64,000 nt of DNA from Rotaria socialis. Its lineage: Eukaryota. Below are positions 4,427 to 63,504 of this stretch, one piece after another; positions within the stretch are counted from its first letter, which is position 1; every line of letters begins with the position of its first letter. The position numbers and the translations under genes are program-made. The stretch lies in contig CAJNYD010000464.1 of the NCBI GenBank assembly GCA_905331295.1, positions 1-64,000 of the forward strand, written 5' to 3'. The notes under the pieces are model-generated. The model was not told the DNA's origin. It saw only the letters and a list, made by a program, of their open reading frames with translations, and ran no database searches.

Positions 4427-6271
4427 GTAATGACTGTGGAGTAGCTATATGGTTATCGAACAGAGGAAAATTATGAACGATGATTATGTTGTTGCATTGT
4501 CAAACGCTTTTCACTTATATAGATAGAAATTCAAAGAGCGACCTTCAATGCAAGGTTGATCAATATGTTTGATACGTAACTCATTCACATTCATGCGTCA
4601 TGGTGATGTGACTCATGTTATGCATGATCATAATATTTATTATAACGTCAAATGATGACGATATGATAATAGGCTTCTTGAAGTATATGACCTAGAAATC
4701 GAGTCCTAGAAAAAAGCCTTCATTCAATCATTTTTTCCAAGAACCAATGTACTGCATAGTATGGAGTTATAAGATTTGTCTTCGTCATTGGTTAACATCA
4801 ATTGTAGAATTATTAGATGGAGAAGGAGCTAAATGAATGCCATGGATTCGAAGTCCTAAGTTGAATGATTCTCTCAGGCAATCTACGTTAGCAGAAAGTT
4901 CTTATTCAAGCTTCGCTTCTCTTTCTTTTCATTGATTTGATCACTGATACGTGAATTTCAATTGTTAGATAATTTCTCGCTGAGAGTAACAGGACATCGA
5001 ATTGCTGAATCTTTGTTCAAAAAAATCAAATAAATACTTTTTTGCGCTTCCGAAAAAATTCATTATTGAACAACATCGTATATAAATATCCAAAAAAAAC
5101 GATTTTTTTGTTCATTCAATGTTTTCAATAATTAATCAGGGAAGCTTTTGTCATTGGTATAAATAAAGCAATATTCAAATCAAACGAATGAATTCATTTG
5201 AAATTCATTTTTACTTATTTGCAAAGCAAAATATGAAAGAAGAATTAAAACACGTAAGACCATGTAGCTAAGAATGAAGTTAAAGTTCCATGCAATGGTT
5301 GATATTGACTATCAACTAACAGCATTGACTAATTTATCTCACAAGATTTTCGAAAAGAAAAGATAGAAATTTCGTATTTTTCAATTGCGACACTGAATCA
5401 ATATTTATCCATAGACTAAGCATCCGTTGTTTTAATGCTAAGAAGATACTATAGACGAGACACATGCACCAAATTATCAACGATATTTTACTTGATATCA
5501 TCTTTCCCAGAGTAGAATTTAAAAGAAGATCTTTTGCCATAAAAAAAATATTTCTTACATCGATCGGTAAGTGATTATATCAGTAATTTGTTTTGCTTTA
5601 GTGAATAGCATTGCTTAAATAAATCTAGTAAGAAGGTTGTGGGTGCATAAATGTGGATACTTGATTGATCCATTCCCGCACACCCACACCTAAACAGAAT
5701 GGTAACAATATCTCAAACTTGCTTATATGATTAAGTTTTATTTTAAAATAAAGATCATATTCAGTTTAATCTTGAACACGACCGAAGTTTCCTTACACTG
5801 TCTCACAGGTGAACTACGTCCAATATCGACCATTGAGGTATGTCAACGAACTGGATCTGCAACAAAGCACGAGTTGATTTAAACTAATAGCGCTCAGATC
5901 TTTTGAAATCAGCAAGATTCTCGAAATTTCATCAACAACCCTTTTCGCTTGTTTCGATAGAATTAGTCGAGCTGAAAATGTCACTCACTTATTTTTTTGT
6001 CATTCAACCTATGAAAAAAAATTTATAAAGAGATATGATATTCATTTATCTATGTTAAAGTCTAGCAAAAGGAACATCGACTGAATCTTATTTTCCGCAA
6101 TGAATATTTATTGGTAATTGTCGGACAAGAATCATTGATTCAACTATCTTGAACGGCAGCTTTGTTTCTCTATGTAGATAACTATTGTGAATCATGTCAA
6201 CCAGTAGTTCACGGTCAACATAAATATACCATCGGTCTATTGATATAAATCGGCGCGCTAGAAAGTTGATC

Positions 6272-7700
6272 ATGAATAAGATTTACCAGTCGAAAATTTT
6301 CACCATATTTTCGAATATCTCGCTCCGCATGATCTTCTCAATGCTTTCGAAAGACTCAATCGACGATTTGACATTATGTTTGCTCAGCAGCCACTTTGTT
6401 TACCGAAGAATCGACAAATGAGTACTCACTTATATTATCATTATTTAAAGAAAATTGTTAGCAAACATGCTTCACAGATTGTTTGCCTTCATTTATCTGA
6501 ACGAAATGCACCATGTGCAGTAGATTATTTTCTGCCTGAAGTGCCATTAAATGAACTCACCTGGCCATCATTGACCATTGAAGATGTTTCACATAATGTC
6601 CTTGAAGTACTGCTTTATCATTCTTCATTATTATCTAAAATTCATTCATTATCACTCGATGTCGGTTAACATCGATTTTATTGTGATCAATATGATGAAT
6701 GTTGTGATCTCGACATTACAGAATATACGCGTAACTTTTTCAATGTAAGTGACAGATCGTCGATGGAGATGATCAACTAAATTTGTTCGTTTTTATGGTT
6801 TAGGGCTCATGGCAATATTGAGAATGAATTGTTACTTCAAATTCCATTAAAACAAGCATTCGCATCTGAACTACGTCATAACAATCTGAAAATCTATGCA
6901 GATGTAGCTTGGGTTTTAACTTTTTTCGAAAATCTTCAACGCTACAGTGGACTTGATTGAATGACTATATCAAGTTATCAAAAGATTCGCTGATAATAGT
7001 CATTTTCCACGAGTAACAATATTACGACATTGGTTAACTTTATCAAAATCGAAGATATTTACATTTAAACTGAACTTGGACATAATTTATGCCTTCAATA
7101 ATAGCGAAACTCAAGAAGCGATCTTTGCCGAATATCGACTAACAACTGGTACAGAATCTGCAGCACGATATGGAAAGATATCGATAGTAATAATGATTCA
7201 ACATAGAGCGTCGAATGCGTTGAAGACGCACCAGTGAACGACTATGCTGAAGAAGTAAGTTCGATGAACGAAAATGAACTTCACATCACTAAGCTCTCTT
7301 TGTCTAGATCGACATTTATGAACTGGATTATGTCGAAGACGAACGGCTCGTTCAATTGGCAGCAATACATTGTTGGCATCATTTGAGGAAAATTAATCTC
7401 GAAGGTGATTATCCTGACGATAATTAAGTGTAATGCCACAGATTTATTACTGATTTATTTTTTTTGAATATAATCTAGTAGCGTTGTTGGCGATAATATT
7501 TCGCATTTACTTCATACTGCTCAACGATCACCCTATTTTAGTGAACTATATATCGAATCAGATCTGGATTATGGTCGTGCTCTTTCATTGAATAAACAAT
7601 TGGAAAGCTTACTTTGTCGTCAGCTTGTAATCTTACATTTTACTACTAAAGAAGCTAATAATTCACTTGGTGATCTTGTTCGTATTATTGATAAGTGTGA
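6272..7700 (+). pseudogene. Degraded F-box-like protein gene
   Basis: N-terminal FHHIFEYLAPHDLLNAFERLNRRF resembles an F-box start. Multiple stops and frameshifts, short introns. Coding-like sequence ends at a telomere-like repeat at 7701. Confidence 0.55.
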
Positions 7701-9697
7701 TGTGGGTGAGTTTAAACAATCTGCAGCTGTACTCATGCTCCATACACACCCTCACGCCCTAAATTACTTCAAATGAATCAAGTTGTGCATAAAAAACACG
7801 GTGATCGCTGAAAGCGCTGCGGCATAAAAGGTGAAAATCAAGAATCACTTTTCATAGAAAGTTCGTAAAACAATATTTCGTCTTTCATACATTTGTTTCG
7901 AAAGAAAGAAATGTTTTAACTCTTCTTTTTATTGAAATACAAGAGGTCATTCATTGTCAGCAAAAACAAATTAGAAATCAACATATTTGAAAATAAAAAC
8001 ATCTGTTTCTCTTAGCATCGAGTCAACGCAAACAAAAAGCAAATATTCTTTTTTTCTACCAGCTTCTAGCAGTCTGAAGAAACATCGCGGCTGTAACTTT
8101 TCTAATTACTAGAAGAAACCATGAATAATGCTCTCCTATATTTAATGTTTACTTGCAATTATGATGTGAATACTATAGGTAAGTGCATTGAGGCAGAAGA
8201 CAAATTAAAATGGGCAGTCCGTTCAAGATTGATTAAGCGCAAGTTGGGTGCGCTCGCGTTTGCTGTGCCAGATCTGTATTAAGATATAATGAATGAAACA
8301 TATTGACGTGAGCCATTGATCAGATATTGATTTATAATGATTAGATGAATGAGTCGATTAGTCATATTTTGAATATCGATTACTGAATTTCAATCGTGTT
8401 TATAACATAATTAATGGGCATGCGAGTGTCTGGTAGTGATTTATTATGTTGGAGAACATTCAGACTATCCGTGAAGTTGAAAAACTTCGCCGTGAAGAAA
8501 ACGACAATGATCACCATATAAATGACTCAGTTAACTATAAACACAAGCACCGCAAGTAAATTTAATAGATGTCCTCCTTCCATCTGCCTTTCATAAATAA
8601 TGATTGGCAGACCCTCATTATGGAAAGTATGCGATGATTTATACTGGTCCGAGGGCGATATGTATCATTGTGAGCAGTACGTAAAATAATGACTGCCACT
8701 CTGATCAGCTATATTTTTCTGAACTATCAAACATCGTTTGAAACGAGAGAAATTAAGTTATAGATCAATGCTCTTTGCTCAGCCAGACAAGTGTGGATAT
8801 GACTGTGACTGTGAGTGGCAATAGAAGACTAGCAAACCACTCACATCCACCCATACACATACACACTTTTTTTCTGTTTTCTATCATGGCGAAGAGAACG
8901 AGAAACAAGCAAGATCCTACTTATACTGATCTCTAATCGACAACCAGTTATTGTTTTTAATTATTGATGTTTGAAACTGGGAGGGAGAGGGACATTAAAA
9001 TCCTCACCTTAAAACGTACCCTCACTATTTTCTTCGAAAATATGTGTAACTTCCACAAAGTAGTTCCTTATTAAATACAGGTAATTCATTAGATTTATAA
9101 ACGGAGTCACATTTAGTTTAATCACTTCTTCGCCTAGGGTTGTTTTATATCAACTTGAATCTCATATATTCTAGACTTTCAATCATTAATACCAATATAG
9201 TCTTTATTATCAAAAAATATTTTTTTTGACACTATTGAATATGTAGTATAACGGCGCGTACTAAACTCATGCTATACTGGAGAAAGAATTATTTCAGTGA
9301 TAATCGCTGAAGCATACGGATGCTTATCTTTTCTTTTCTTTCCATGTTCTACGATTATGCATTGATAAATAGTGCTTTTCAGGTTCTATTTCTTCTTTTG
9401 CACATTTCACTACATTGTATTATCTCTTCACTAGAATATGTTGTCAAATGGCACAATCATTGTCTCTTGTAGAAATACTGTATTTTACAAATAGTTGACT
9501 GGAAAGAATTAAATATCTTCACTTTCCTTTTATTTGACTCAAGAAATGTAAATTGTCCAGCTTTGCTGTTGACCTGAGAAGACTTTTCAAATAAAATAGA
9601 ATCATGAGTAAGTTAGATATTAAATTGATTTGTGCTTGACGAGTTCAGTTACAACTTATCTCGTAGTGTCAAACTTGAAGCTTGAATTCAATTGAAT

Positions 9698-15206: not shown

Positions 15207-15299
15207 AATTTCATTGTTGAAGGCCGTCGAGTTAATGAATAAGCAGAAACAAGAAAAGGAACGAAGAAAAAGAAGAACACAGGCGATGAATACGAGGAT

Positions 15300-16774: not shown

Positions 16775-18079
16775 TCACAGAACTTACATTCTTCAATTTG
16801 TGAATTAGACGTAGGCAACGCTAACACACTTTATATAAGAAAACGCAGAGCATTGGAAGCAGGTAAAGTACAAATAAGAAGCGAGCAGAATCATAATGTC
16901 TGATTTCACCATCAAGCAACAATACCCGTCATCCTTGCATTCAATCAAGAAAACATTATAGAAACAGAGCGGTGACTCATTGGCGCATGACTTGGCGTTG
17001 TCTTTTGTACAGTAGACTTCATGATTCTCTTGTTTTGCTCTACGCAACTTTCTACGTTCAGCAAATTTCATGTCACGTATGACTTTTAGTTGGTCATACG
17101 AAATAATTATTACGAGATTGCTGTATGAACCAAGAAAAAGTTTCAAAATAATCATATTCAGTGCACGCTAACCACGCATCTAAATCATCCGTATATGAGC
17201 GACACCACACTTAAATGAAGCAACATCCATATGTGACGTAAGCGAATACTGATCGAAAGTATGTTTTGAGGGTGTGGCTGGATAGGAGTATGTGTTACTA
17301 TCGGCTAGTTCAGTAATGTGACACACTCACACCTACAGTCAATACCTATCGAGAGGCAATTTTGTGCAATGAAGTGATGAGGAGCTATCGATGGAAGAAT
17401 AAACTACACTTTTAAACACGCCAATATTACTTATAGGCTGTATTCACCAAAACATCTTAAGAATATGGAGACTTTTGCCGTAGCTATGTAAAGTATTAAT
17501 AGCTTTATCCCAAGGTTTTTTAAGAAAGGAAGGAAGACGCTCAAATAGTAACGTAAAATCTTCTTGAAGTAGTGTCTTACAAATGTAAGTCCATCTTTCA
17601 ATCTTTCATAGTTAGCTTCAAAACGGTATCCCTGTACTTACATGAAGAATAGTGTTTACAAAGTTTTGATGACATGGTTGTAAATATGGATTAGAGGTAA
17701 AACTGCACACATTGACATTCAGTAATTTGATACTGAAAATATATTAAGGAGACCTAGAGCACATTTTAAATTGTATTCAACATCTATATGTTTAAATACG
17801 TCTCACATACAAACTAGAATCTATTTTCTTCCAAACAAAGAAAAGAACAAGTATGTTTTAAGTGTGTATATCTATTCTCCATTCGCAAATAACCTGTAGG
17901 TACTCACTGTTTTTTCACTCCACACGATAAATAGAGAGTAATTTTTTCGTATATTTTCTATAAAGCAATTATTGCTTATATAAAAGCAGTAGATACCACT
18001 TGAATAAAGGCATAATTGCAATACAATTTTTTCAACTGACACGCATATTCGTATCCTTTCGATAATCGACATCAGAAAA

Positions 18080-20091: not shown

Positions 20092-20878
20092 TGATGCAAA
20101 GTTTCGTTTGCAGTAGACTTTCTTGTAAACCGAAATTAAGGCGTTATGGACGAGTTTTCAGAAAATATCGATTTAATAGGCGATTACCACTTTTAAAGAA
20201 ACGTTTTTCAAATACATCGAAAAGAGCGTACTTGAAAATACCAGATAATGTTTCTCCCGTAACTTAAGCCTGCGTTTAAATTGTCGAAACATACTATAAA
20301 TGTTAATATATGTTGAGCTTGAAAGTTGGAGATTTTTCGACCTTTTTTCTTCGTTTTAGTACTTAGCCGTTTTGTAGTTTTAAAAAATCTTTTACACATG
20401 AGTTTGTAGAGAATTGAATGCTCAATCTTTTGGGAAAATGTTCAGTTCAAATCAATGAAGAGCAAAAACGATATTGAGTAAATAATGAGACCACCATTCT
20501 TTAAGGGTCACCCGTTACTTTTATGAAATCAACTGTTTATTTTCGGGTGGGCAAATCAAAATTTCGGGCGGGCGGCGCCCACCCTGCCCATACGGTAGAT
20601 AAATCACTGCATGTGAAACAAATCACATACTTCATCTACACCCACACCTTGTATCTTTTAAAACAATCGAAGAAAATGTAGAAACCAGAAAAGGGCAGAG
20701 AGGATAGGAGAGAACGAAACTAACTAATGAAGAGTGTGATACAATAATGACGATATTTTATGAAAGTCTGATTCTCAACGTTGTGTTTTTCTGCCAGGTG
20801 TCTCCAAGAAGCAAATTAGGCGATGAGTTATCATAGATACATTATATCAACTTCACCTGCCTGGCTTTTCCCTTTTAA

Positions 20879-22298: not shown

Positions 22299-23517
22299 AA
22301 CTGATTAAAAGGCTTATGTTAAAAATGCTTATGAACTAATCAGTATTTGCTTTTTGTACATGCTGAATCTATTTCAAAATTTTCTCAATATTACTAAATA
22401 AAAAATAATGTCGCTGAGTATTTTAGCATTGTTAGTAAATGTTAGACGGTGTTAGGTGTGAGCCTCGGATAACCAAACTAAAAATGAAATCTATCTTGCA
22501 AAAAAACCTCCAAAATTCAATCACTAAACTCAAAACAAGCAGATAAATATCTTGGGGGTGGGAGTGTCAACCTTTCGTCTCCGCATCCATTAGTGTTTGC
22601 GGTTGTGCATCTTTCTGATGAAGTTTTCAATGGTTGTTAGAGAAAAATTTTGTTTTTTTTGTGGATTGGTATAGGTAATTTCTGCTCGTATCGTGAATGG
22701 TGGACGACTCGGACACATTCTATTGGCCGCCCGGCTAGCTTCACAGTGGTATTGTAATCGGACTGGATTTCATCAACAGAGCTACGATCAGCAAGTCTGC
22801 AGAATTCGGAAAAAAACAGAATGCCAAAACAAAAACAAAAAAAACGATCGAAACTCAGAATCTTTTGCCTTTTTTTAGAAGATCTGGTATCCCGACGCAC
22901 AATACTGGTTGATTCAGACCAGAAAAAAAGAAAAAAAAAGTAATGTTGATAATACGAAAGGAGACGAAGAAAAGAAGAAAAGGAACGAAATTATGCAAGG
23001 AATGAGTAAGTGTTGATATTACAAAGGATTAATATGATTATCGACAACTTCGTCGTTTTAAATTTCTTTAATTCATCGATGATTGAATTTTTCTTCATCG
23101 CCACTAGAAAACACATGTCGTATAATTTTATGAGCAACCGACAGTATAATGGCGTGAGCATTCAACTGATAGGTAGATTCGCCACACTGAGAATATAAAA
23201 AAGCAGATATAAATAGTCAATCCTTCTTCATTTCATCAGACAAATATATTGATACAGACACCAAGTTAAAAAACAGAATTTCTAATAACGCTGCATGTAG
23301 ATCTGAGCATCAGTTGTTAAGTATATCGTCGTTTCTATTTGCTTTATACTATTGACTTTCTTTTTTATCGTTCTTATTTTTCTCGTTGTCCCAGCCATGG
23401 ATATGTCATTATTGCCATAGATATTTTTCGTATGAATTATTCAATACATGTGACATTAATAATTTCAGATTCCGGCATTGATCCTATTCCACTTCAGTAA
23501 ACACGACTGGTCAAAGA

Positions 23518-24313: not shown

Positions 24314-27300
24314 ACGTATAGTTCGAAGATCAATTTTTAGGTACTTTTGTTTTTACTGCCTATTTTCATTATCGATTTTGTCAAACAACGATGATCACGG
24401 CAATAGAGGGAAGAAAAGCAAACTTTTTTTCGTCGTAAACTAAAGAAAAAACATAAACAAATAAGTAAATATAAAAACGTTAACCCGACCATCTTGAGTG
24501 TATGAGCGCTGATTTGTTCTTTATTCACACGCACACAGTCGCACTGAAATTATAAATTGTCTCACTGATATTGATTAAGCTTGTTTTTCGCTGTTATTTT
24601 TATGCTAGGTGTAGCCCATGAAACTAATTAAAAGAGCTCATGATTAGTAGAGAAAAAACTGCTGTCAAATTGTTTCAATAGGCGATTGAATAAATAGGCT
24701 GTATAATTGAATGTGAGCCAAAAAATGGAACTATCTTAATTGTAGACTCACTTTGAAATACACTACTTCGAAGAGGATAACTGGGATTTGCTGGAAGCGA
24801 TGACATGCTTTCTGAAAATTGAATTTTCCAGTCAACTTTAATTGGAAGATTGGGTGTGGATGCCCTAATGCTTTTTAGACCGAAGATACATGTGGCCACG
24901 CCAGAAACGCATGGACACCTACACTGTGATGATATGTCGTGACTGGTGCATTTGGCTGTTTTCTGTCATGTTTTAAATATTATTTACGTCATCGGACAAA
25001 GAAAAAGTTCGGTGTTATGAAATATACTCTCTTTACATTCAGCATAGTTTGAATTAGTTTACTAGGAGAAAAAAATGCAACGTTTGGGTTCTTTTATGAA
25101 GTATTATCACACTGCAGCTCATTATTAAATTTCTGAAAAAATGATTAGAAAATCTCATAAAACGTTGACATGCATTATTACCTTGATGCACTTTTGTCTT
25201 GTTAAATATTCAAGTTTTTATAGTTTGATGGCAACGACGGGTGTGGGTGTGGGCGTTGAATAAAGAATAAACGTATACCCACAGCCACCCTTGTAGTTGT
25301 TGTCGGCGAATTCAAAAATCTGTCTGCAGATTGCTAGGATGTATCCGTCATGTTCTAGTTTATCTAGACATCTCCTCTCCTTTTCTATTACTTTTTCTGT
25401 ATGCCTTCGTTTCTCGTCGGTCATCGCTATAATGCTGAAAATGTTTCTGAACGTATGCATGTACATATATATTGATCGTTCAGTTGACCAACGATAAAAG
25501 TATTGTGTATTTGTATGTGGAACTCTTATCTGTCTTAAACTATTGGAGTGGAGGTCATTATAACATTTAGACAAGAGTTAGCCATTTTGCCTGATCGTTC
25601 AACCTTTCTTTCTCTTTTTCTCTCTCCGTCCTTCTCGTTCATTAAATAATCTATTCCTCCCACGACTTCTTCTTTATTCTCTTCTAACAACAAGTCCGAA
25701 TGATTACATCGTGGCGCAATTTGCTGATCAAAGCCTTCGGTAAGGAAAACGAGCGTTGAGAACACATCGTTAGCAACACAATGGCAGATAAAGACATGGA
25801 TCGAGAGTACAACGATAGTTATGGGTATAGTGGATGCGGATGTTGTGCCTTCACAGTATGGACTCACAACAGAGTAAAATTTCCAGCAGTATACAACGGT
25901 AGCGAATGTGTGGTCTCAGTTCCTCGGCATCCCAACGGCAAAGCAACTTCTCACATAGGTCGAGAATAGACAACATGACTACGTGACTGGCGGTTGGGTG
26001 TTTATTTCTTTTCATTTACTCTTTTTCTTCCTATGGTACGTGTTTCGTTATTTTTCTCATTAGTAACAAAAAAATAAACAGCTATGATATCATTTAGCGG
26101 TCTTTATCGACGACAGTCAATCTGATTTCGAGGGAAAACGCGATAAACATGTATCTAACAAATATTTTTGAGGCAAAATGGTCATCGTTCAGGAAGATAT
26201 CGACTCAATGTAACACTTAAGTATACAAATAAATAAAACGAGGGTGTGAATATGGATGTCAGAGTTCATCGTCTTTTTGTCTTCACTCATATCCTTCACC
26301 AGGCCATGTAATAAGTGAAAATTTCGACATATTCATTGAATATGAACTTTTTCGTCCGACTTGCTTGTTTTGAGAGAAACGAATAAGGTCTGCACAGACT
26401 GAAAAAAATAAAACGTCTAAAAAATATGATTGAAGTCGACATAGACCAATTATGTTGCTTAATTCTTGAGGGTATAAATAACCTCAACTATGTGTAGAAC
26501 ATTTTCAAAATTCCACAAAAGAAAGAATTCGGTATCTTCGTTTGTTAATCAATAAATGAATATAATTTTTGTTCATTCTCTTACATTTTTGCCTCAATTG
26601 AATCGTGGATGTAAACCATCCCAATCGAAAAGTCCAACTAGAAATAAATCCCCCCCCCANCCCCCCCCCCCCCCCGGATCTTTGTTAGAAAGCACTAGTA
26701 AATGATATTGTGACTGTGTCAGGAAATAGCGTTCTCTTTTAAATTCAGCCAGTGTAATGCTTTTTGATAGATCAATATATTTAGGATAATCTAATTTAAC
26801 TGAATTTGTCATCAATATACGTTCATGATTCCATTCGATACAGTATTGGTCAATGGAGAAACCACCACTAGTTGTAATATTACCATCAATACATTAATTT
26901 GAACCTGAATCAAGAATAGAAAGAGTCGCAAAATAATTTCACCATGTCAATTGACCTCTGATTTTAGCAATAACTTGTTTTGATGGATCAGAAATGATAT
27001 GATTATTATGTCATGGGATAGTGCAAGATTCTATACGATATTTGGTCATGGACGGAAAATATACTCGAAAGAATGTTCTCCGAAGCATGCCTTTTTATAA
27101 AAAAAAAAGTTGTGGGTAGTATTTTCCGTACTAATGACACATGTTGTCGTCAATAGAGAAGACAAATGAGAATCGGCGACATGTTGTATGCATATATGTG
27201 TGTCAAATTATTGATTATAATGTGAAGATGGAAGAAATGCCGTAGGATAAAAGGGTTACATATAATGGTATCTGGTTGTACTGCTTCTATTCATAGAATA

Positions 27301-29259
27301 TATCTAACAGAGTTATCGTATTCAAGTTTATATCACTACTTATTGATAATGAGAAAAGAGTAAAAAACAAGAGACACATATTTCTGTGTTATGCTATCTA
27401 AATTATTCAAATATACAATCCAATGTTCAACAATGGTGATTAGATTGCTCTTTGAGTACAGAAACAATAAATATACAGTTTGGCAAATTTGAGACTAGAA
27501 CAAAAGAACATTGTGAGCGTGTAAGCAAAATAACGTTTGTACTTCCTAACTTTTCAATATTACAATGTGAGACTATTGTGACTTTAGATATTGACACAAA
27601 CACCGATTCATATTCCAGTCATCATTTCATATGAAAAATTCAATACAAATTTCGTCGTTTAATTGCCATCTTCGGATGATAACTGATGAAACATAAAAAA
27701 GACATAGATTTTCCACATTTGAAGGTGCCAAATTTGATCCAATGAAAATTAAAAGAAAAATAAGAAGATTTTGAAGAAAAAAAAATATGAAAAAGAAGTA
27801 TCTGATCAGCAAGACAAATAAGAATTTGAGTGTAGGTGTTGTTGTTGTTGTTGTAAGTGACGATAAAAATGAGATTCGAATCAATATCGAACGACCCCCA
27901 CATACTCAAGAATTTTAATGAAGACTTTTATGTGAAAATATCGTTCAGACTAAAACAATATGATAGACTATAGTATATAACTTAATGGTATATCTTCATG
28001 AAGAAGAATAGGTAAATCTTTGTCTCTTGAAAGATAAAAACAACGGTTTATTTCTCTCTGATATGTGCTTATCAGATGTTCACATAACCATATAAAATGT
28101 AATAAAGAAATAATGAATATGCTCAATTGGAACATTCTATAGTGAATCATTTAGATAATCTCGAATCATTTATTCTAGCCGTTTTTGCATCTCTCCGAGA
28201 TAAGAACAAATAAATCTTGCATAAGTTGAACGAAGCGACTCATTTAACAATTTATAACTTTATAAAATAAAACTAATTTCATTATCGTATGAAAGAAAAA
28301 GAAACATCACTTTTGAGAAATTGAGAAAAGTCAATGAAACGATAGTAATAATAATAACTATATTTTAAAATGTAGAAAAATAATTTGTTTTTAAACAAAA
28401 TTGAAAAAGACCAGTTTCTGTTTTAAAGATTAATCCAGTTAAAATACATCACATTCTTCGCTGCAAATAGCCATTTCATTGAAAATAATTTTCTAGACTG
28501 ACTGTCTATTGAGTTTGTGTGAAAAATAGAGTCTTTGAATTCGTATGGAAGCAAGCTCCTTAGATATTCAGATATTAATGAATTATTTATTCTCTCTTCA
28601 ATAAGTCGCATGGTTGCAATAAGATTTCGATATTTTCTTCACTTTAATGCCATCCGAACATTTATTGTCACATTTTTCTCAGTCTAATTGAATATTGACA
28701 AAGGCTAGATAACCGACATAGCTTTCTATTCTTATCTAAAGTAATATCCTAAGAAGAAGGAAGTATAATTACGTCGATTAAAACATTTACGAATATATTC
28801 GATCATAGTAATTTCGTCTTCGTATTTTTTATGAACTATAAAAGTATGTATTTGTTGAAGAAACAATGTCATAATGAACAAAACTGATAATCATAGAGAC
28901 AACGATAATTTATCCACCGATTAGAAATTTGCATTTCTCAATTCTTATAATTTTAATATAGACAATTTTTTTAATAAAACATGTTCTTTAATCATATTTT
29001 ATTTTCATACGTTGAAGAGTTTATTGTTTAAATCAAATATTGATGTTTTAGATCACTTGCCAGTTTGGGTTCAAAACGTTCTTCTCCCCGTACACCTACC
29101 CCATCACTTCATTTACATATAAATCCCCACGCCCACACCCTTCTATGTACATCGGAGCAATCTTTCACTTTTATTTCTTAAATGATGCATTAATTTCAAT
29201 AGTTAAGGAATCAGATCTTAGTTATCAAATCTGAAGAGGTTCTCAAGTGGTTTGTTTTA

Positions 29260-41305: not shown

Positions 41306-43205
41306 AAAAGGATGGTTTGAAATGCTTTGCTTGAATGGTATAACTTGTAATGATGATGGTGAAATGTTTTCATTAGTAGTAAAAACAAATTTTTCTATTC
41401 GTTTATTTACGCATTTTTTTAGCTTGACAAATCAATATCATGTTGTTGTCGAATAAAACGTTTCTTATTAAGTATTAATAAATTGTTACCTTGAGGGTGT
41501 GGGTGTAGATTAGTTCATCAGGGCAATACCCGCACCAGCCCAACCGCCCACACTCAGAACATAACCCTGATTGATTTCCGGTTTGATCCATACTCTAGAT
41601 TTCTTGTCCAACTAAATGTTAGCATAGTTTTCTTTTAAAAGTATGCGAAAGACCAGAAAATTATACAATTGTATGAAAAAACAATTAGTTAATATTCACA
41701 GGCAATTAGCTGGTATATCATCTTCACTGCTCTTGATAGCTGAATGCAAATAACTAATTCGTTCATCAACGAACGACTTAAAAAAAGTATTTACACGATA
41801 ATACGATTCTACTCCTGTTTTTCATTTAAGCTTAATAGTATATGGAAAACTATTGCAGCTCTATATCTTACTCATCCGCTCGGTTGAAACAAAAGGCAAC
41901 CATGTATTAATGCGATCATTAGTAATGTTTAAGATACACCAAAATTAGTAACAGTGGCACTGTAATGCCATACAGGAAGTTTTCTTATCGTATGTATCAG
42001 TTGTATTGATACTCGTTTAAAAAAATGCGAATGAATATTTTTTGACAGAAACACGAATGAAAATTTAAGTTTTCGAAACTTTTCAATGAACATTTTTAGA
42101 ATCAAACCTATCTGGTACGGGTTTTAGAGTAAGTTTTCAATAATCCAGTAGAAATTTAAACTTTTAAGAAACGATCTTCATAGTGGGAAAGATTAAGATG
42201 AACAATATGTATTCTAGTCGATCCTCCAATAAAATTTCCTAGAAAAATCTGTAAAAAAAAGTACACTTTTATCCTTTGTTCCAAGGGGGACAAAGCTTAT
42301 TGCCGTCAAAGCAATCATGAATTTATTTCCTATTATAGGATGATTGCCATTGTGCCGCATAATGAAAACTAAATGCAGTATCAAATGCACCCAGAGCCCA
42401 TCGTCTGATACTCAAAAAACCGAAAGCAATCAATGACAATCTTCACCATCAAAAAATCAGCTTCTCTTCACAGATATTAATACCGATCTAAAACACGATT
42501 ATCATCTTGCTCCGTGACGACAACGAAAAGTGTACCGAGAAACAAACTGGTGATGAAAACACAGATAGCAATTAAAGACAATACTGAAATATTATGATGA
42601 TGATTGCAATATATTACTTTCAAACAGAAACTCATAATTGAATTGTGATGCTTACAACTCTGCAAAACGGGCGGTGTCAAATCGATCCACAAGATAGTCC
42701 TATTTCAAAATCGTTTCGTCACTGTCGCTGGGAATTTATGTTGTCTGCTTTAAGGCAATACACGGCTTGATACAAATGGACAATTTTCATGGACGCTTCA
42801 TCGTGTATTCAATGAAATAGGTCAATAGCCTTCCGATACCACGTCTCTCCTTCACGTTACAGCATAAAGTACCTGTGATCACTACGTCAGTCCAATCGGA
42901 AAGTGTCATTGTTTTCAAGATAGATTTATTTAATTTACCGAAAGCTACAAAACTGTAAAAAAATCTGTACCAGAGAGACAAACATAGTCCGTAGACGCGA
43001 GTTACTTGAAATATATGCATATTTAAAATAAAATTATTAATGCTCATGTTCTCTCTTTAAAAATTTAATGCAACATGTCTAATACAGACGATTCGAGAGA
43101 TGTGTTTGCTCTTGATTTTTTACGATTATTCTATGGTAAAACGACTTTGATACTTTGCCGACTGAGTTAATAGTCAACTGCTAGTTGTGTCTAAGTGATA
43201 AAATG

Positions 43206-43520
43206 TTAGGACATTGAAAACAAAACAAATCTTGTTGTTCTTACATGAAGTTGTGTTGAATCACAAAGAAGAACATGAGGTATGTCATTTTGCTTGATAA
43301 GCACTGATATTTCTATGAGAGTATGTAAGATAAACTCACGGTAAATATGAATCGATCGTATTAAAATCCTCACCAGTAAAGCCGAGAACAATACCCTCGA
43401 TATTCTGTTCATCGTTCAAATGTTGAGTTACTTTTAAAAAAGTTTGTTTCGATTCTTCAGTGACTATCTCGAATGATAATTCATTCATAATAATATCATT
43501 CACTCGCATGATTTCTTCTT
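43206..43520 (-). pseudogene. 3' fragment of an aspartate/glutamate racemase family gene with a 61-nt intron
   Basis: Spliced product RVNDIIMNEL...IEGIVLGFT|EISVLIKQNDIPHVLLCDSTQLHV resembles the racemase ILGCTE..DTT..H region. Intron 43373-43313; N-terminal half missing. Confidence 0.7.
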
Positions 43521-43956
43521 GAGGGTGTGAGTGTTTGCAACAGGATAACACCCACGCCCGACCAAGTATGCTTCATTTACTTGCCTGTATAATATGCAAT
43601 CGGTGTACATAGAAACGCATGTAAAATTTTTCGCGAAAAAATTCTTGCCAAAGATAGATTTCACTATTACTCATTAAAAATTACAATGAATATCCCGATT
43701 AATGGCAGTGTTTATTCCGGCGTAACTTTATTTAATGAGAAATGTGAAGCCTATATCCGCATCCGTACCCACGCCCACACCCTCAAAATAGGATTTATGC
43801 ATGCTGAGATAGTTGCCATTATTTTGGTTCACCCGGCATATATAAATATATGAAGAAGATGTCAACAAGATAAAGTCTATAAAACCTTTCTATATTTATA
43901 TAAATTGACACTAAAAACACTAAAAAAATTGCATTTGAATTGGTTCTGTTGTACAT

Positions 43957-47094: not shown

Positions 47095-47204
47095 TGATTT
47101 ACAACTATTTCGCTATCCAGTGATCAATCGTATCGTCCAAAAGAATCATTATCTTTCTTCCAGATAAATCATCCTGTTCGGCTAGCTTCACTCTGGTTCT
47201 TTCT

Positions 47205-47922
47205 AAACGAAAAATATAATTAGAGAATTTTAGATATTAAACAAATATATTCTAAACGGATCTCGAAATCACTTTTTCTATATAGCATGAACAGTTTATT
47301 TATATGTCGTCCTATCCTATTTTTATATCAAAACAGATATAAAACTTATTCAAGTGTAAAAAAACACTTATGGATTGAAAATAATACAACTGCTAAAATA
47401 TAGTTGGAAGAAGAAAACAATCAATCAGAAATTATTGAGACAATGTTAATTGATCCTGTTTTTCATAAGCCTACAAATGAAACTAGAAACCTGAAACTTG
47501 TTGATAAGATAAATAATAAAGCAAATTTTTGCACTCAATGAAAAGTAATCTTTCAAGAGAACTTTTCGTGAGAAAAACGATGGTCTCCTTGTTTTTGCCG
47601 TAAAATATCCTAGATTGTTCAATTATATTTTAATAATTAGTCATAAATCAAATAATTACCTAATAAAAACCTCATATCTTCATTTGATTGAAAATTATTT
47701 CTGCTTAGAAGAAATTATTCAGGATTAAGACTAGAAATACGGTCTGACGAGCGAATGAATCATCTGCAAATAATACTTCGAATAGTTCAATAATAGGCAT
47801 TTAAAATGAAAATCATTTCGTCATCTTATTTCAAGTGCAATCTCATGATATCAATAATGCTTATAGTTTATTCTCTACAATTACCAATAAATCAAATTAT
47901 ATCTATGTCACTGTGTTTAAAC
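47205..47922 (+). pseudogene. Truncated paralog of the 5' part of the PPR-DYW gene
   Basis: Collinear similarity to 10450-10615, 11350-11690 and 12250-12422 (shared ttattctctacaattaccaataaatcaaattatatctatg); lacks the MITE. Confidence 0.85.
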
Positions 47923-48233
47923 GATGTGGGTGAGCGTGAATTGTATTTCAGAGAACAGGCACGTACAGCTCGCCCTATAATTACGTAAATACATTACATA
48001 TTGTATTTTCTACAATAACTACAATTTTCTCGGAACGCGTACATTTGGCACATGTATACATTTAATATTTTCTCTATTGTTATCATCGTATCTGGTTTTT
48101 CTAATCTCGCATCATTTTTGTACATCTTCAATCAAATATGCAACATGAGCTTTTCAAAAATGATTTATTCTATTGCATAATATATTTCATTCATCCTTAC
48201 AAAGTTCAACTAAAAAGCCTATTATGACACAGT

Positions 48234-53300: not shown

Positions 53301-56045
53301 ACTTCAAATTCAAAGAATGGAAATCTTCCGGTTTTTCTCGAGAATTGACCTCATGGATGAAGAGGTCTATACAAAAAACATTACATATATTCATGTAAAA
53401 AGTTTATTTCTTAAACATTTTTTCATACAAATCTTGAGCAGTATCATATCGACTGTATACAGCCATTGTACAATAAGCAAGAAGCAAGCTATTTGAAATC
53501 AATTTGGTCCGATGCATGATTATTGTAGAAAGATACAGGATGTGAGAGTTTTTTGTATTTGAAAATAAACCGATGACTAACTAGTCATTTTTATTATTAT
53601 TACTGGCGATGTGATTTCATAAGATGGCGACATCTCGATTGGTACTTATCGTTCTAATGCATATCTACGGTCTAGCAATTTTCATGAGTACTATGCGTTT
53701 ACAAATTGGTTTTTCTTTCTGTGCTCGTTGCATTTCGTTTTTTCTTACATTTGCGGTAGGTATGCAATACAAACATGAGAATGAGGAAGGCTATGATGGC
53801 TGTTAGTGGGATCTCACTTCTAGCAGAAACTAAGAGCTAAGTAAAATACTCAAATTCTATCAAAAGACTAATGCTGTGACACTAAACTGGGAATTTTTGC
53901 TCGCAGAAAAAAATCGATTTTGAGATTCGAGATCTACTCCAATGCATGTAGATCGTTACATGAATATATTGCAATTACCGTCACCACATCAATAATCAAG
54001 AGTTAATAACCATATATTTCAATAACGAAAATATTTTTGTGGCGGTCTAATAAAAGCTCGTCAGATAGAAGATTTTTTCTCACTGTTGATGAAGCATGAA
54101 ATTATCTTTCGAGTAATGATTATTTGGAAAAGAGCTTGATTTACTTCCGTTCAAATATTTATGAATCTTTTTAGTTTTTTTCTCAAGTTATCTTTGACTT
54201 TTGTATTTTATTTTTGTTCAATTATTGAGACATTTACCATTGCCAATAGTTCGAAGGGGTTTGATTGTATTCTTCTTTTGGTTCGCTTCGCCGGTTATTT
54301 GTGGTTCTTCATTTGCTCTTACGCGATAATTGTCAAATGGATGGACGATCTTATCTGTATAGTTGGCATTCATGCTTCCTCGTAAAATTTAAAATTAAAA
54401 CGAAAAGACAGATTTTAATATAGCTATGACTTTAGAGTTTTTCACTTAATATTGAACTGCATGCTTCTTTTGTTAGTTACTGGTATGAGATTTATTTCGT
54501 GGAAATGAGTTTTACAAAGAAAAATGTAAGTATACGTGTTACAGCTTCTACAACGCTAAATTTGTCATTAGAAACCTTAGATTTAAGGTACATGATTACG
54601 AAAGCTTTTTCAATTATCAGCATGAGAAAACAAGAATCAAACTAATCTTAACCAGTTTCGTGTACATTTTGCAGAGTAAACATTGATAATCTATCCTGTT
54701 TTTGAAGAATATAAGATTTAAAACAAGGGTTGAAGTATTACGATTTCAAAATTTGTATACATTCGATCCTAATTAGTCATTAGACTTATGGAAAGAAAAA
54801 CGTTACTGACTATTTGTCAACGAATTTTAAAGATTCATTAGACAATGTTTTGACATTTGAGAAATTTCAGATGATTTATGATCAAAGTTGGAAAATGGCT
54901 TAAGATTATTATCTAACTGAGGTTGTTTAAAATAATCCTTTGTTAGATATAACTAGGGTTGGTACATTTACTTTATTTTTTTCCAAAGTAAATAAGTAAA
55001 GTAAATATAAAGTGCCACCTCTAGATCTTATACGTTGCTCGCGAAAAATAAAATATTTCCACTCATCGAAGCTATAGAATTTGTTTTTATTTAGACGATT
55101 TCATCTTTCTAGCAACAATACAACTACCATGTCTGCTATGGTTGTTTCTCGCTAAGAAACGTACGATTCAAGTGACACTCGTAAAATTGATTCTCTCGAA
55201 AACAGTTTAAAATATGCAAAAAATGAAATTATTTACTCTTCTGCATACCAAACTGTTCAATCATAAGTGAGAAGGCAGCAAAAAGAAAAGATTACTCTGT
55301 TCAATTCTATTTCAAGATTTTAATTTACAACTAGCGACGCATATTCTTGTCGGTGAAAAACGAGTGACTATTATGATCTTGAGATGTGCATTTCTGCTAT
55401 GCAGAGTATTACAGCCGCATTCCTGTTACAGTTTCACTCACTGCAGCTGAACATCGCTTCATGTAATTTGAGGTGCTCTGTTGTCTCTGTATACTACAAG
55501 TCTTACGTTTCTACAGCATTTGATACCAATGTGAGAATGTAGTAGGTAATAATTTCCAACAAGCACTCTTTTTTCTGAATTTCAAGTTTCTGATCTGACC
55601 ATCCTGGTAACAATAATAGTTGTTTGCCCGATAGCATTACTGCACAATTTTCCGTTCAAGTTTCTAATCCAGCTGGAAAACTCTGCACCTGCGTGATATC
55701 GTTTGCTTAGTCTAATTCATACATGGAACCGGTACTGGTCTGTTGGCGATCTATTACTGGTCTAACTTTTTAATTTTCCTGCTTTTATCACAAACACTAG
55801 TACAAAGTTGTTATTTGCAGAACGATATAGCTATATCGTTCTGTAAGGATGTGGGTGTGGGAATATGCACACAAGAACACACACACTCACATTCTCAAGA
55901 ACGAATGCAGATGTCAAAGATTGACCGTAGTTCACTTATTTCAATATGAAAAGTTGATCTTTACGTTTTCATGAGTACCTGTTGATCGTTTAAAGAGTGT
56001 TAAAAATATTTTAAACAATTTTTGTTCTAGATACAGAATTTTTAT

Positions 56046-58489
56046 ATGGCTTCTAGTAGTTTTCATGAAAAACCTTCGGCTCTGCGATTTACCGACGTGG
56101 GTGAATTGCCAAAACGAATGTTGGCACCGATCGAAGGCTATGAGACGGTTCCACTTGTATCTCTCGAAGAAGCTGTAAAACCTCTTGTGGATATAGTACC
56201 AAACGTCGAACGAAATGTATATGTAGTGAAAGAGAACTGTCAAGATCCAGAAGATGGCTTAACAACTGACGAATCAGCTTCGATTATGCTTTATACGTAC
56301 GAGTCAATACCGCATGAAAACTCGTTGTATGTTAAATTGAATGACACTACGATCTGAAGAAAGAAAACATCTAGTTCCATGGTTCCTCTATCTTCGACTC
56401 ATGCTGACTGCACTTGCTCGACTTCCATCAAAGCGTCGTTCAATTTTCCGAGGAGTCAAAAAGGAATTATGGCTCGACTATCCAGAAGGGAAAGTTTTTA
56501 TTTGGTGGGGTTTTTCTTCATGCACTTCGACTATCGGAGTGTTGAAGAATGAACATTTTTTTGGCAAAACAGGTGAAAGAACTCTTTTTAAAATAAAGTG
56601 CACTACAGCCAAGAACATAAAGAAACATTCATTTATAGTCAATGAGGATGAAATACTTCTATTAACCGCTAGACAATTTGAGGTTAAATCATGTCTAAAT
56701 CCTGGAAACGGACTTCATATTGTACAACTCAAAGAGTTGAAGCCAAAGTTCGATCTTCTTCAACCAGTCTCAATACCTAATTTAACAGTTCAGTCCAATA
56801 TAAGTTCGCAAGGTATATCTCCACCAATCTCTGGAGCCATGGGAGCACAATTTTCAGCCACGCAAGCAACATCAAAATGTAAGTCATACTTCATGAATCA
56901 ATTAGATATGTGTTACTTAGGCGTTAATAGAGATAATGCATTAAAACATTAGTGAAAAATATAAATCATCTTCATACTGCATCATAAAAGAACAAAAGAA
57001 AAAAGCAGTGATTATTAGCAAGTAATAGTAGACGTCTGATAATAACGATTCGTATAAAGTCAGGTGTTAAGAGCATACCACAGTAGTGTAGTTTGATATA
57101 TTTTCAAAGAGTATATTTGTGGCATGCCAATTTAGTTAGGGTCAAAATACTATTTTCTGAATTTGTATTTCATATAGAAATATTTAATGAGGTGCTTCGA
57201 GAGTTTTCTTTTCCTTTTACTTACTAAAAAACGTACGCATGCTTTTTGTGACCTCACGATCTTAGATATGATCAGTCAGAAAAGAATTCATTCTTTTTAA
57301 ATTCGAAATAATAAAACGAAAAAGTTTGGCGCCATTTTCTTTTTATTAATATGCTGAACAGTTACAAAATACCTGGGTGTAGGTACGAATGTGGATGTGT
57401 TCGTAATCCACACCGGCACCCTCACTTGTCAGCAAAATATTAGCTTACAAGCTTTGAATCACGCCGGGCGGTTCCCTCGTAAGACTATACTTGCGAGAGC
57501 AGTTTTTTCCCCTAATATCGCTACCACTTCAGAGATAGAGTGAGCGATCTCCTTTGATTGTACGTTCTCTCTTCTAGTTGATATTCCTGATAATGCTGAA
57601 TGGACACAGAACGGAGTGACGATTGCTGGAAGTCACGGGCAAGGCGATGCCACTAATCAACTCTTCTGGCCCCATGGTCTTTTCGTTGATGACGATCAAA
57701 CAGTGGCTGTTGCTGACTTTGGGAATGATCGCATCATCCAATGGAAGAAAGATGATACAACGAATGGACAAGTTATTGCTGGTGGCAAAGACCAAGGAAA
57801 TGGATTGAATCAATTGAATCGACCAACAGATGTATTAATTGACAAAGAGACGGATAGTCTCATTATTTGTGATTGGCAGAATCAACGAGTTGTGCGATGG
57901 TCTCGTCGTAGTGGTACAACACAAGAAGAAATATTCATAGACAACATCGCTTGTTATGGATTGGCATTGAATGAACAGAGATATCTCTACGTCTCTGGCA
58001 CCAAAAAACATGAAGTAAGACTATATCAATTGGGTGGGAAGAATTACACTGTCGTAGCTGGTGGAAATGGGCAAGGTGATGGTCTCAATCAACTCAAATT
58101 TCCGGCATATCTCTTTGTCGATCGACAACAGAATGTTTACATATCAGACTGGAATAATCATCGTGTAATGAAATGGACTATAGATGCACAAGGAAGGTGT
58201 TGTCGTCGCTGGAGGTCAAGGCTTAGGGAATGATCGGACACAACTTTATTGTCCTAATGGACTTTTCGTTGATGCGTTGGGTACACTCTATGTAGCAGAC
58301 TCTTGGAATCATCGTGTAATGCGTTGGACTCAATGAGCGAAAAAAGGCACTATAATTGTGGGTGGAAATGGCCGAGGAGAAGGAGCAAATCAGTTCAACA
58401 TCCCCATTAGTTTGTCTTTCGATCGATATTTCAATCTTTATGTCACCGATTATAATAATAATTGTGTTAAACGATTTTCAATCGAATAG
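56046..58489 (+). pseudogene. ADP-ribosyltransferase plus NHL-repeat gene; exons 56046-56878 and 57578-58489; disrupted
   Basis: ART motifs IFRG, WGFSSCT and EDEILL; NHL repeats (VAGGNGQG..LNQL..P..LFVD..YISDWNNHRVMKW). Frameshifts near 56348 and 58190; TGA at 58334. Confidence 0.88.
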
Positions 58490-59972
58490 ACTTATGAATT
58501 GTCGATTTTCGTTTCTTTCTCTTTTTCTACTTTGAAATAAATGAAAAAGAAAATTTCTTTCTTTCTCTCTCTCTCTCTCTCTCTCGTTCGAAAGAAAAGA
58601 ACATCCTTACTGAATTTGGTTGTTCGTTTTGAGATTGACCTAAAATCAGAGAGATAAAATTTTTTCCTATTGTATCAAATATTAGGATAGTTATTTACGA
58701 GATATTGAATTTATCTTTCATCGACAGTTTCGATTCATTCTAACAAAAATTGAAGTTTTTTGAAAATAGCCGAGCACGAAATTTTATGAATCAACGAATT
58801 GCAATAGAACTATTTAAAAGTAATTTGCTCTTTATAATATGAGTTGACAGTTAATTTTATACAATTATGAGAAAAAGATTAATAAAAGTAGTGATTAATG
58901 ATATTTGTTCAAAAGAAAAACTTTTCGTTAGATTCATCACAATTAAAAGTGATTTTGTCAGATTTATATATTATAAGAATACGGTTGCATAACTTCTTAA
59001 CAAATTTTCTATGATCATTAAACACAAAATCGATGTCAAAGTCATGTGATATCTACTGGAATTAAGTCGAAAATAAAAGTCAAAGTCATTGAACAAATAT
59101 GCTCTCTCTCTGCAATCATCTCACAGCTTCTACCATCAATAATTGTTGGCAAACCATGCATAAATACATGTAATGAACTCAACTGCGGTAAATTTTAGAG
59201 TGAATACACAGCCGCTGATCAATTTGGTAGTTTATAGTTAGGATCAAAATAAAAAAGAAGAATACGAACAGAGAGAATAGTGGGTAGAAATAAAGAACAG
59301 TTGTTCAGACAATTAATACTATTCACCAGAGTTATAGTGCGAAGAGTAGATAAATATATAGGAATGGATTTATTATAACACAACAAGGGCAACGTTTCAA
59401 TGCAATCAGATAATACCACATGAAGTAAAGAACACTTAGATTATACGAAATTTCGACTTGATGCATCGAGTGTGCAAATATATGATTGATTCACTGTCGG
59501 ATTATTGAGAAAAGGTGCTTCAAGTACTTTTATTTTAGTGACGTATTTTTCTTCAGACTATTTCTGAAAGAATTCATCAAATGCCCGTGGAAGAGTATAT
59601 CACATATGATGATACTATGGACTTCCACATCTCTTGAGGGCGTGGGTAGGAGTATTTTATAGGCAACTTGTAGCCGTCACTTTCACATCCGCCCTCTTCC
59701 TTTTAATCCGCGATCAGGATCAATGCATACTCGAGAGATATAAATAAAATAAGTGCTTGTTGCGATGAAAATTGTTGATTATATCTCATATCCTTCAACT
59801 GGCATTTGATGTTGTTATTTGAGAAAGGCTTCGTAAATAGTAAATATTTGATGTAATACAACATAGAACGCGCACATCTTTACTATTTTAGTCACATATT
59901 GTGTTGAAGAAAAATTTATTTCTTACATTGACTCACACATCGGCAGACTGCGAGCAAGACAAAACTGACACG

Positions 59973-62281: not shown

Positions 62282-63504
62282 CAAAATGAAGTAAAACATT
62301 GACTGAATAAAACATCTGAAAAATCTATTCAATCGAACGAAGTTGAAGCTAATTTTTCGATTGTGCAGTTCCATGTGTTTATTTTCACGAACTGTTAGGC
62401 AGAGGAAGGAGAGGGATAGGAGTGAAGAACGTTTTTGAATCCAAACAGACGCTCACACCCAAATCTTCAAGATGCTATGATCGAGTATGGTTTGTCGATC
62501 TGAAACGCTCATCAACAGCATCGATTGACTGTTTGAGTACACGTGGATAATATTTCGATTCAGGCATATTTTTCACCTCCAATTTATATTATATAATACC
62601 GGTTTGTGTATATCGGTCGCGTGTTTCTTCTTCCTCATTCGTCTACCTATGCAATCGACAGTTGGTTTTTCCTACTTTCATAAAGAAAGCGAACGATAAA
62701 TAAACACACATTCGAACGAGAGATATTTTGCTTCATTTTGTCCATTACAGAGGCAAAGGTAAGTGATGGTTAACTTCAACAATATAGTGAGAACAAAACA
62801 AATCCTCTCAAGACATAAGTGTGTCGAATAAATTTCAATGAAATTATCTTTGGCCGTTTTAGTTATCTAAATTAAAAGATACTGCAATGTCGCGATTGTC
62901 AACAAGAAAAAGTTTAATTTCTGAAATCAGTTCTACCACTGATGAAGATTCGTCGCTAAATGTGCCCAACATCAATTATACAGCTCAGCCAAAAAAATAC
63001 TCAAATTCGCCTGAGAAAAAATCAAATAAATTCAAATCCATTTTATCAAATTGTGCAGCATCGGTGTCTCCGAAAGGTTCCAAACCATTATCTCGAGTTA
63101 TTCCGGACGACGACACAAGTAATAATGACAATTTGATATCCGTTTAAGTAACACTACTGAAGAGGAAATATCTCAATATGATAAATCATTTTTGACATGA
63201 GTTTGATTTCATGAAATAGACTTTCTTATAACTGCAGAAGATCTAAATTGATTGGTGTTCTTGAGTGTTACAATATTTTTTCAAGCATTCACAAGTTTCA
63301 ATAGAAGCTATTTAATGAGATACATTCGTAGACGAATATCACACAAGAACTGCCTTCTAACGTAGAACATCTAGCTACGCTATAGTATAATAAATTATTA
63401 TAGTCTCTAAGAAGTACAAAGATATAAATTATCATTTCAAATATCCAAACAAAAATAATGATCATTTTCAAGATTAAAAAGTAAAAAATTGGTATTTATT
63501 GTAG

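What the first reader, a model, noticed from the sequence alone, without database searches (positions are those of the whole stretch)
5635..62460. Head-to-head telomere-like inverted repeats scattered through the window: possible break-repair scars
Seen in sequence: at least 15 elements of 40-80 bp have a degenerate (GGGTGT/GGGTGA)n left arm, an unrelated spacer and an (ACACCC)n right arm, always G-arm first. Examples: 25239 gggtgtgggtgtgggcg..acccacagccaccc; 36773 gggtgtgggtgtgg..cacccacaccc; 41492 tgagggtgtgggtg..cgcccacactca. The spacers do not resemble each other, unlike a MITE family. From recall, TGTGGG/TGAGGG hexamers are reported as bdelloid telomeric repeats. G-arm then C-arm is end-to-end fusion geometry. 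Inference: both ends of a double-strand break receive short telomeric additions and are then joined, a possibly undescribed repair signature.
Basis: partly seen in the sequence, partly recalled or inferred. Interest (0 to 1): 0.85.

Follow-up and report, generated by a model that had tools for sequence, protein, structure and literature searches.

The report
Head-to-head telomere-repeat scars at rotifer breaks
This bdelloid rotifer DNA carries about twenty short sites where two runs of telomere-like repeat face each other, some exactly where a gene or a duplicated segment breaks off; they are likely scars where both ends of broken DNA were given a few telomere repeats and then joined, which would be an abundant repair footprint in animals known for surviving shattered chromosomes.

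Summary
Observation confirmed. The window is Rotaria DNA. Telomere-like arms pair G-arm then C-arm 14 times and never the reverse at a 10-bit cut-off (0.6 and 0.4 by chance); I list 23 pairs by eye. There are no target-site duplications, the arms are hardly mirror copies, and Rfam gives no match. Two window elements start where homology to an intact copy stops: a duplicated PPR segment and an F-box gene. A third abuts a fold-back palindrome. Fresher copies in metagenome contigs mix both published bdelloid telomere hexamers irregularly, interrupt genes (CDK with 17 codons lost; a methyltransferase), and share an outer TCTTGA cap and a purine-rich core. So the scar reading is supported, but spacers are not always unrelated. 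The likely mechanism is telomerase extending both broken ends, sometimes copying the RNA beside its template, followed by end joining. The enzyme is inferred, and no clean empty allele was seen. The closest known kind is the vertebrate TERC-ITS; here head-to-head is the rule and density is far higher.

The parts
5634..5694 (.). G-arm / core / C-arm element
7695..7760 (.). Element that begins where F-box coding homology to the intact relative P0165 ends; also read through in four R. socialis and R. magnacalcarata relatives
8791..8866 (.). Element with purine-rich core
8979..9027 (.). Weak, decayed element
17264..17336 (.). Element with near-cap start (1 mismatch)
20632..20651 (.). Lone C-arm 23 bp right of a high-copy repeat end
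22550..22588 (.). Element with near-cap start, weak C-arm
24492..24538 (.). Element with near-cap start (found here)
24851..24924 (.). Element
25239..25290 (.). Element; a 93%-alike contig of run X10 stops aligning at 25238
26240..26300 (.). Element spanned without gaps by an 87%-alike paralogous contig
26464..26489 (.). Minimal element: exact cap, 8-bp core, short C side
27513..27604 (.). Weak element, long core
27828..27910 (.). Element with cap letters at the right end
29066..29140 (.). Long decayed C-arm with very short G side
36773..36843 (.). Element
37110..37178 (.). Element 66 bp past the end of an MFS reading frame
41489..41555 (.). Element with near-cap start
43517..43560 (.). Element with exact cap
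43760..43788 (.). Lone strong C-arm ending in a near-cap
47198..47921 (+). About 80%-identical collinear copy (five pieces) of 10443-12422, the start of the PPR-DYW gene, ending 2 bp before an element
47923..47976 (.). Element at the end of the duplicated segment; the intact copy has no arm at that place
55815..55846 (.). 32-bp fold-back palindrome abutting a G-arm
55847..55900 (.). Element with cap letters at the right end
57375..57425 (.). Element between the ART and NHL coding parts (probable intron)
59632..59697 (.). Element with exact cap
62405..62461 (.). Element with decayed G-arm

Best explanation
The facing telomere-like arms are likely scars of double-strand breaks at which a telomere-repeat-making reverse transcriptase, most likely telomerase, extended both broken ends before they were joined. 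Each broken end would receive one to a dozen irregular TGTGGG, TGAGGG or TGGG units on its G-rich strand, which forces the G-arm-then-C-arm order. The first round would sometimes copy a few RNA letters from one side of the template (the outer TCTTGA cap), and a last round would sometimes run past the other side (the purine-rich core). The two tails would then be sealed through a short ACCC/GGGT overlap or by blunt joining, either to the true partner end (insertion with deletion) or to an unrelated end (rearrangement). The window copies look old, fixed and worn down by G-to-A changes. Shown: geometry, repeat identity, position at homology breaks, no target-site duplication, shared cap and core in fresh copies. 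Inferred: the enzyme, the RNA origin of cap and core, and the joining step.
For: Order G then C 14:0. In-window paralog: the collinear copy 47198-47921 of 10443-12422 stops 2 bp before an element and the intact copy has no arm there; 0.5% of positions lie within 3 bp of an element end. F-box homology to P0165 ends at the arm start, and its last 99 residues have no credible hit in the window (best E 0.051). A fold-back palindrome with 16-bp arms abuts 1 of 46 element ends; the maximum in 1500 random flanks was 11. L070: the element lies between CDK residues 175 and 193, with 17 codons replaced (the right piece is weak alone, E 0.06). L073: methyltransferase homology starts at the element for 7 of 7 relatives tested, with no hit in the other flank. 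L111 (gamma-COP) and L040 (ART-TPR family) reading frames end at elements. L046 has flanks that are inverted copies of each other. Units in the arms of 15 long copies: GGGTGT 70, GGGT 42, GGGTGA 39, in a different order in each arm, matching both published hexamers. Target-site duplication scores equal the null: 3.32 against 3.39 in 31 complete metagenome copies, 3.45 against 3.49 in 22 window copies. With an objective flank-GC cut, AGAGA is in 15 of 41 low-GC cores (shuffles 2.4, maximum 8) and 3 of 77 high-GC cores. Neotelomeres are reported at A. vaga deletion breakpoints (PMC13564844, passages).
Against: No clean empty allele: contigs of runs X1 and X2 cross the elements unbroken, for example 20581-26600 with 5 differences and 2 gap letters (X1 and X2 may be the window's own source, and only 15 of 39 joints were shown). 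Only 3 of 23 window elements have direct break evidence. Window cores share nothing detectable and show no purine skew (p 0.36), so the templated core rests on other, unnamed species. Arm lengths correlate (rho 0.41, p 0.02) and cognate arms pair slightly better than shuffled ones as RNA (p 0.02-0.04; as DNA p 0.13-0.15), which independent additions do not predict. The cap is not on a consistent side of the core (by eye, 6 copies one way and 4 the other). Orientation bias in 36 kb of metagenome flanks is weak (2:0, 3:1, 6:2). The L111 and F-box breaks could be intron starts. PMC2861651 (passage) saw no end-joining footprints in over 1 Mb of collinear bdelloid pairs.
Confidence: 0.72

Rival explanations
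1. Same scars, but the core, and perhaps the repeats, are copied by the Athena/Terminon reverse transcriptase from an element RNA that anneals to a G-tail, as a very short aborted insertion. This overlaps the best explanation in everything but the enzyme.
For: Terminon RNAs expose ACACCC or TCACCC stretches that pair with G-overhangs (PMC6431247, passages); Athena fragments occur at A. vaga breakpoints; several core types exist.
Against: No hammerhead or other Rfam match in the window; cores are mostly 6-30 bp; Terminons form head-to-tail arrays; irregular unit order suggests repeated realignment on a short template.
Confidence: 0.1
2. Decayed copies of a tiny foldback or MITE-type DNA transposon whose inverted ends are built of telomere-like subrepeats and start with TCTTGAGGG.
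For: Palindromic layout, shared terminus, shared core in fresh copies, correlated arm lengths.
Against: No target-site duplication; 0 of 31 complete copies carry the cap at both ends and 8 at one; arms are not mirror copies; loss of host sequence or unrelated flanks at the site.
Confidence: 0.07
3. A selected cis-element: convergent sites for a telomere-binding protein (like plant telo-boxes or yeast Rap1 sites, both recalled) or an RNA stem-loop near gene ends, about one per gene.
For: About one per 3 kb and outside coding sequence; several fold well (z down to -4.8); shared by diverged paralogs.
Against: Found cutting coding sequence; changes are spread over all positions and are mostly G-to-A, as in neutral decay; by eye no fixed side or distance to genes; no strand preference in folding.
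Confidence: 0.07
4. Pre-existing cut sites: the core is cut on purpose and the facing arms seed new telomeres on both pieces, as in programmed DNA elimination in nematodes (recalled).
For: The geometry is the one such a site would have.
Against: The intact paralog lacks any arm where the broken copy has one; assembled contigs run through the elements; window cores are not conserved.
Confidence: 0.04

Closest known systems
Vertebrate TERC-ITS and short interstitial telomeric sequences (PMC8537989, PMC7215372; passages read)
   Same: Short telomere repeats inserted at break sites, often with deletion, microhomology or inverted duplication; fragments copied from just beside the template (their types B and C); head-to-head stretches explained by a second telomerase at the other end.
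   Different: There 41 TERC-ITS were found in 30 genomes, 3 of them head-to-head, with 229 human and 142 horse short ITS in all. Here head-to-head is the rule, at about one per 3-5 kb in this window. The match to telomerase RNA cannot be tested because no bdelloid one was found in my searches.
Fusion-type ITS such as human 2q13 (named)
   Same: Head-to-head order.
   Different: Arms here are two or three units, between ordinary genes, many per window; not whole-chromosome fusions.
Neotelomeres at A. vaga deletion breakpoints (PMC13564844, passages)
   Same: Bdelloid telomere repeat added at breaks; the authors speak of scars.
   Different: Described as one-ended caps on unrepaired fragments; the searched word 'inverted' does not occur in the text, and no joined pairs are described in the passages I saw.
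Terminon/Athena retroelements (PMC6431247, passages; primary papers not held)
   Same: Reverse transcription primed on G-rich telomeric tails; short telomere stretches at junctions.
   Different: No hammerhead, no reading frame, inverted rather than head-to-tail.

Membership tests
Short ITS / TERC-ITS | Repeat equals the organism's telomere repeat | tested here: met
   Units TGTGGG and TGAGGG are the A. vaga and P. roseola repeats; Rotaria chromosome ends themselves were not seen.
Short ITS / TERC-ITS | Inserted at a break, shown by an empty homologous locus | tested here: inconclusive
   An intact paralog or homolog without the arm exists for 47923, 7695, L070 and L073, but no allele with both flanks contiguous was seen.
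Short ITS / TERC-ITS | Adjacent fragment matches the telomerase RNA | not testable with these tools
   No bdelloid telomerase RNA in searches; no genome held.
Short ITS / TERC-ITS | Host bases in register with the insert at the junction | tested here: inconclusive
   Seen by eye at L070 (host CTT overlaps the cap) and 47921; not counted against a control.
Fusion ITS (chromosome end-to-end) | Head-to-head order | tested here: met
   14:0
Fusion ITS (chromosome end-to-end) | Long arrays at a single junction of two chromosome ends | tested here: not met
   23 elements of 22-92 bp in 63 kb.
MITE / foldback transposon | Target-site duplication | tested here: not met
MITE / foldback transposon | Same terminus at both ends, arms mirror each other | tested here: not met
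   0 of 31 with both caps; cognate partner ranks 3-14 of 18 as plus-strand RNA.
MITE / foldback transposon | Shared internal sequence | tested here: inconclusive
   Absent in the window, present in fresh metagenome copies.
Terminon / Athena | Hammerhead ribozyme next to the telomeric stretch | tested here: not met
   0 Rfam matches at E up to 1 in the window; metagenome loci were not scanned.
Known structured RNA family | Rfam match and covarying stem | tested here: not met

The most novel reading that the evidence does not exclude
Bdelloids use telomerase as a routine end-joining enzyme: both broken ends are extended and a read-through tail copied from the telomerase RNA glues them together. 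This would leave tens of thousands of scars per genome that map past breaks and rearrangements and that spell out the template and both flanks of the still unidentified bdelloid telomerase RNA (the cap, repeat and core read in order in L052 and L093).
Probability: 0.4. Interest if true: 0.88.

Novelty: new variant of a known kind. Interest (0 to 1): 0.72.

Why it matters
How bdelloids rebuild broken chromosomes, shuffle gene pieces and take up foreign DNA is a long-standing question, and one study (PMC2861651) saw no end-joining footprints in over 1 Mb of gene-rich DNA. A countable, oriented scar would date and map past germ-line breaks, let desiccating and aquatic species be compared, and test whether foreign genes and duplicated segments are bounded by such joins. 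The shared cap and core give a concrete query for finding the bdelloid telomerase RNA. It would also be a case of telomere repeats being fused routinely instead of preventing fusion.

Tried and rejected
No whole genome is held, so no genome-wide count was possible. Rfam: nothing. No RNA holder listed; run X9 is only a guessed RNA run and is not used. Laying contigs: no displayed joint skips an element; two joints linking a G-arm to a distant C-arm (43534 to 43766, 25259 to 20631) are probably other loci matching by arms alone. Viral contigs: no ART relative, 3 pattern matches, no match to the core pattern. Flank translations of 37 loci gave few Pfam hits, so most loci say nothing on gene interruption; L086 lies inside an enlarged intron of an otherwise continuous glutamate-cysteine ligase gene. 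G-U wobble strand bias for an RNA hairpin: not seen. A fixed polarity of cap versus core: first noted, then dropped when a second core type showed the opposite side. TA, TTAA or Helitron-type insertion sites: considered by eye on cap flanks, not consistent. Two primary papers on Athena and Terminons were not held.

Full report
Setting. The window is 33% GC with bdelloid-type genes: ART-TPR, ART-NHL, PPR-DYW, MFS, S9 peptidase. The best protein relatives are Rotaria magnacalcarata (97% over the ART start) and R. socialis (99% over part of the F-box frame). Both are obligately aquatic, non-desiccating species (PMC7943196, passages). No whole genome was held.

The observation. The elements are there. 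With a periodic GGGTGT model, G-arm-then-C-arm pairs outnumber the reverse 8:0, 10:0, 14:0 and 22:4 as the cut-off is relaxed, while Markov controls give 0:0, 0.07:0, 0.6:0.43 and 5.1:4.3. I list 23 pairs by eye, 22-92 bp long. The hexamers are the published telomere repeats of Adineta vaga (TGTGGG) and Philodina roseola (TGAGGG with TGTGGG as a variant) (PMC7943196 supplementary file 10, read whole). Changes in the 42 window arms tallied are mostly G-to-A at all G positions, as expected from neutral decay. There is no Rfam match. An arm pairs with its own partner only slightly better than with another element's partner (p 0.02-0.04 as RNA, 0.13-0.15 as DNA, 18 elements), so these are two separate runs of a motif, not mirror copies.

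Fresher copies elsewhere. I picked 40 by eye as low-GC loci with irregular arms; 3 were tied to bdelloids by protein. In 15 long copies the arms are irregular strings of GGGTGT (70), GGGT (42) and GGGTGA (39), ordered differently in each arm. Two non-repeat pieces recur. The first is an outer cap TCTTGA: complete on 8 of 73 arms against 0 of 155 arms in the other loci, and exact 4 times in the window against 0.2 expected. The second is a purine-rich core, identical as AAAGAGAAG in L015, L070 and L114. With an objective cut on flank GC, AGAGA is in 15 of 41 cores against 2.4 in shuffles, and in 3 of 77 high-GC loci. Window cores show none of this (1 of 23; pairwise scores at shuffle level).

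Not a transposon by its defining marks. Target-site duplication scores equal the null in 31 complete metagenome copies and 22 window copies; no complete copy has the cap at both ends and 8 have it at one. Against my reading, arm lengths do correlate (rho 0.41).

Position at breaks. In the window, 47198-47921 is a collinear copy, about 80% identical in five pieces, of 10443-12422. The last piece ends 2 bp before the element at 47923, and the intact copy goes on into the PPR gene with no arm; 0.5% of positions are that close to an element end. The element at 7695 starts where homology to the intact F-box protein P0165 stops, and P0165's last 99 residues have no credible hit in the window. Four relatives from R. 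socialis and R. magnacalcarata read through the same element, so it is older than their divergence. The arm at 55847 abuts a fold-back palindrome with 16-bp arms, longer than in any of 1500 random flanks. A contig of run X10 stops aligning at 25238, one base before an arm, a weak hint. Elsewhere, L070's element sits between CDK residues 175 and 193, with 17 codons gone and host CTT overlapping the cap. L073's methyltransferase homology begins at the element and the other flank has none. L111's gamma-COP frame and L040's ART-TPR frame end at elements. L046's flanks are inverted copies of each other. Limits: only 3 of 23 window elements have such evidence, some breaks could be intron starts, and no clean empty allele appeared in the laid contigs, which cross the elements unbroken (output tables were cut).

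Mechanism. Adding G-rich repeats to the 3' strand of each broken end and joining the ends gives G-arm then C-arm and never the reverse. Irregular units fit repeated realignment on a short RNA template. A cap outside and a core inside are what copying just beyond either edge of the template would leave. Sola et al. describe both kinds of flank copy in vertebrate TERC-ITS and invoke a second telomerase for head-to-head cases, 3 of 41 loci (PMC8537989, passages). That vertebrate telomerase RNA has a U-rich stretch before its template, as the core would imply here, is recalled and comes from no call. In A. vaga, telomere repeats and Athena fragments were found at deletion breakpoints (PMC13564844, passages). 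The enzyme is inferred. Athena reverse transcriptase, which primes on G-tails (PMC6431247, passages), is the main alternative. I put 0.72 on telomerase-type scars, 0.10 on an Athena-copied version, and less on a transposon, a selected cis-element or programmed cut sites.

Novelty. Eight literature searches (listings and abstract starts) showed no description of dispersed head-to-head telomere pairs or of a telomerase RNA in bdelloids. PMC8494291 (passages) notes only a local rise of interstitial repeats at one hotspot; PMC12133305 has rotifers only in a reference; PMC2861651 and PMC7215372 were seen as passages. The primary Athena and Terminon papers were not held, 9 of 21 supplements of PMC7943196 were not searched, and the supplements of PMC13564844 were not read; any could bear on this. 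Earlier notes of this scan reach the same reading on other rotifer windows; I saw them late in this analysis and count them as leads only. The kind is known from vertebrates; its dominance, density (one per 3-5 kb here, weaker in 36 kb of metagenome flanks, and possibly inflated in this pseudogene-rich region) and the templated cap and core are the new part. Verdict: real, likely break-repair scars, new variant of a known kind, interest 0.72.

Noticed in passing
window 40788-41309: Very high-copy repeat with sharp ends (MITE-like; depth in the thousands); it contains one exact TCTTGAGGG at 41146 followed by a pyrimidine run, like a minimal element.
   Followed up: partly
window 20200-20609: Second high-copy repeat with a GC-rich hairpin at 20540-20600, ending 23 bp before a lone C-arm.
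   Followed up: partly
window 9690-9998, 33839-34005, 11699-12238: Imperfect long palindromes and inverted subterminal-type repeats, probably old foldback or MITE remnants.
   Followed up: no
window 12333-14151: PPR-DYW gene (PPR repeats plus DYW deaminase domain) in a rotifer, with a truncated duplicate at 47198-47921.
   Followed up: partly
window 6280-7700 and 56046-58490: F-box gene and ART-NHL gene both broken by stops or frameshifts; the region is rich in pseudogenes.
   Followed up: partly
window 29260-33558: Single 1432-codon ART-TPR frame; run X8 has no cover over about 30476-32467, which may be a filter effect.
   Followed up: no
window 15300-15677: Iodothyronine deiodinase-like frame; not checked for a selenocysteine codon.
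   Followed up: no
L086 (intron around 301-370): Element inside an intron of about 176 bp in a glutamate-cysteine ligase gene whose other introns are about 50 bp; arms contain GTGAGT donor-like and CTCAG acceptor-like words, so scars might be tolerated in or create introns.
   Followed up: partly
L106 flanks: A 13-bp direct repeat lies about 40 bp left and 15 bp right of the element, possibly a repair-associated duplication.
   Followed up: no
L020, L021, L030, L031, L083, L085, L096: Unrelated family of perfect GC-rich hairpins with the same 11-mer in higher-GC contigs, probably bacterial REP-like repeats.
   Followed up: no
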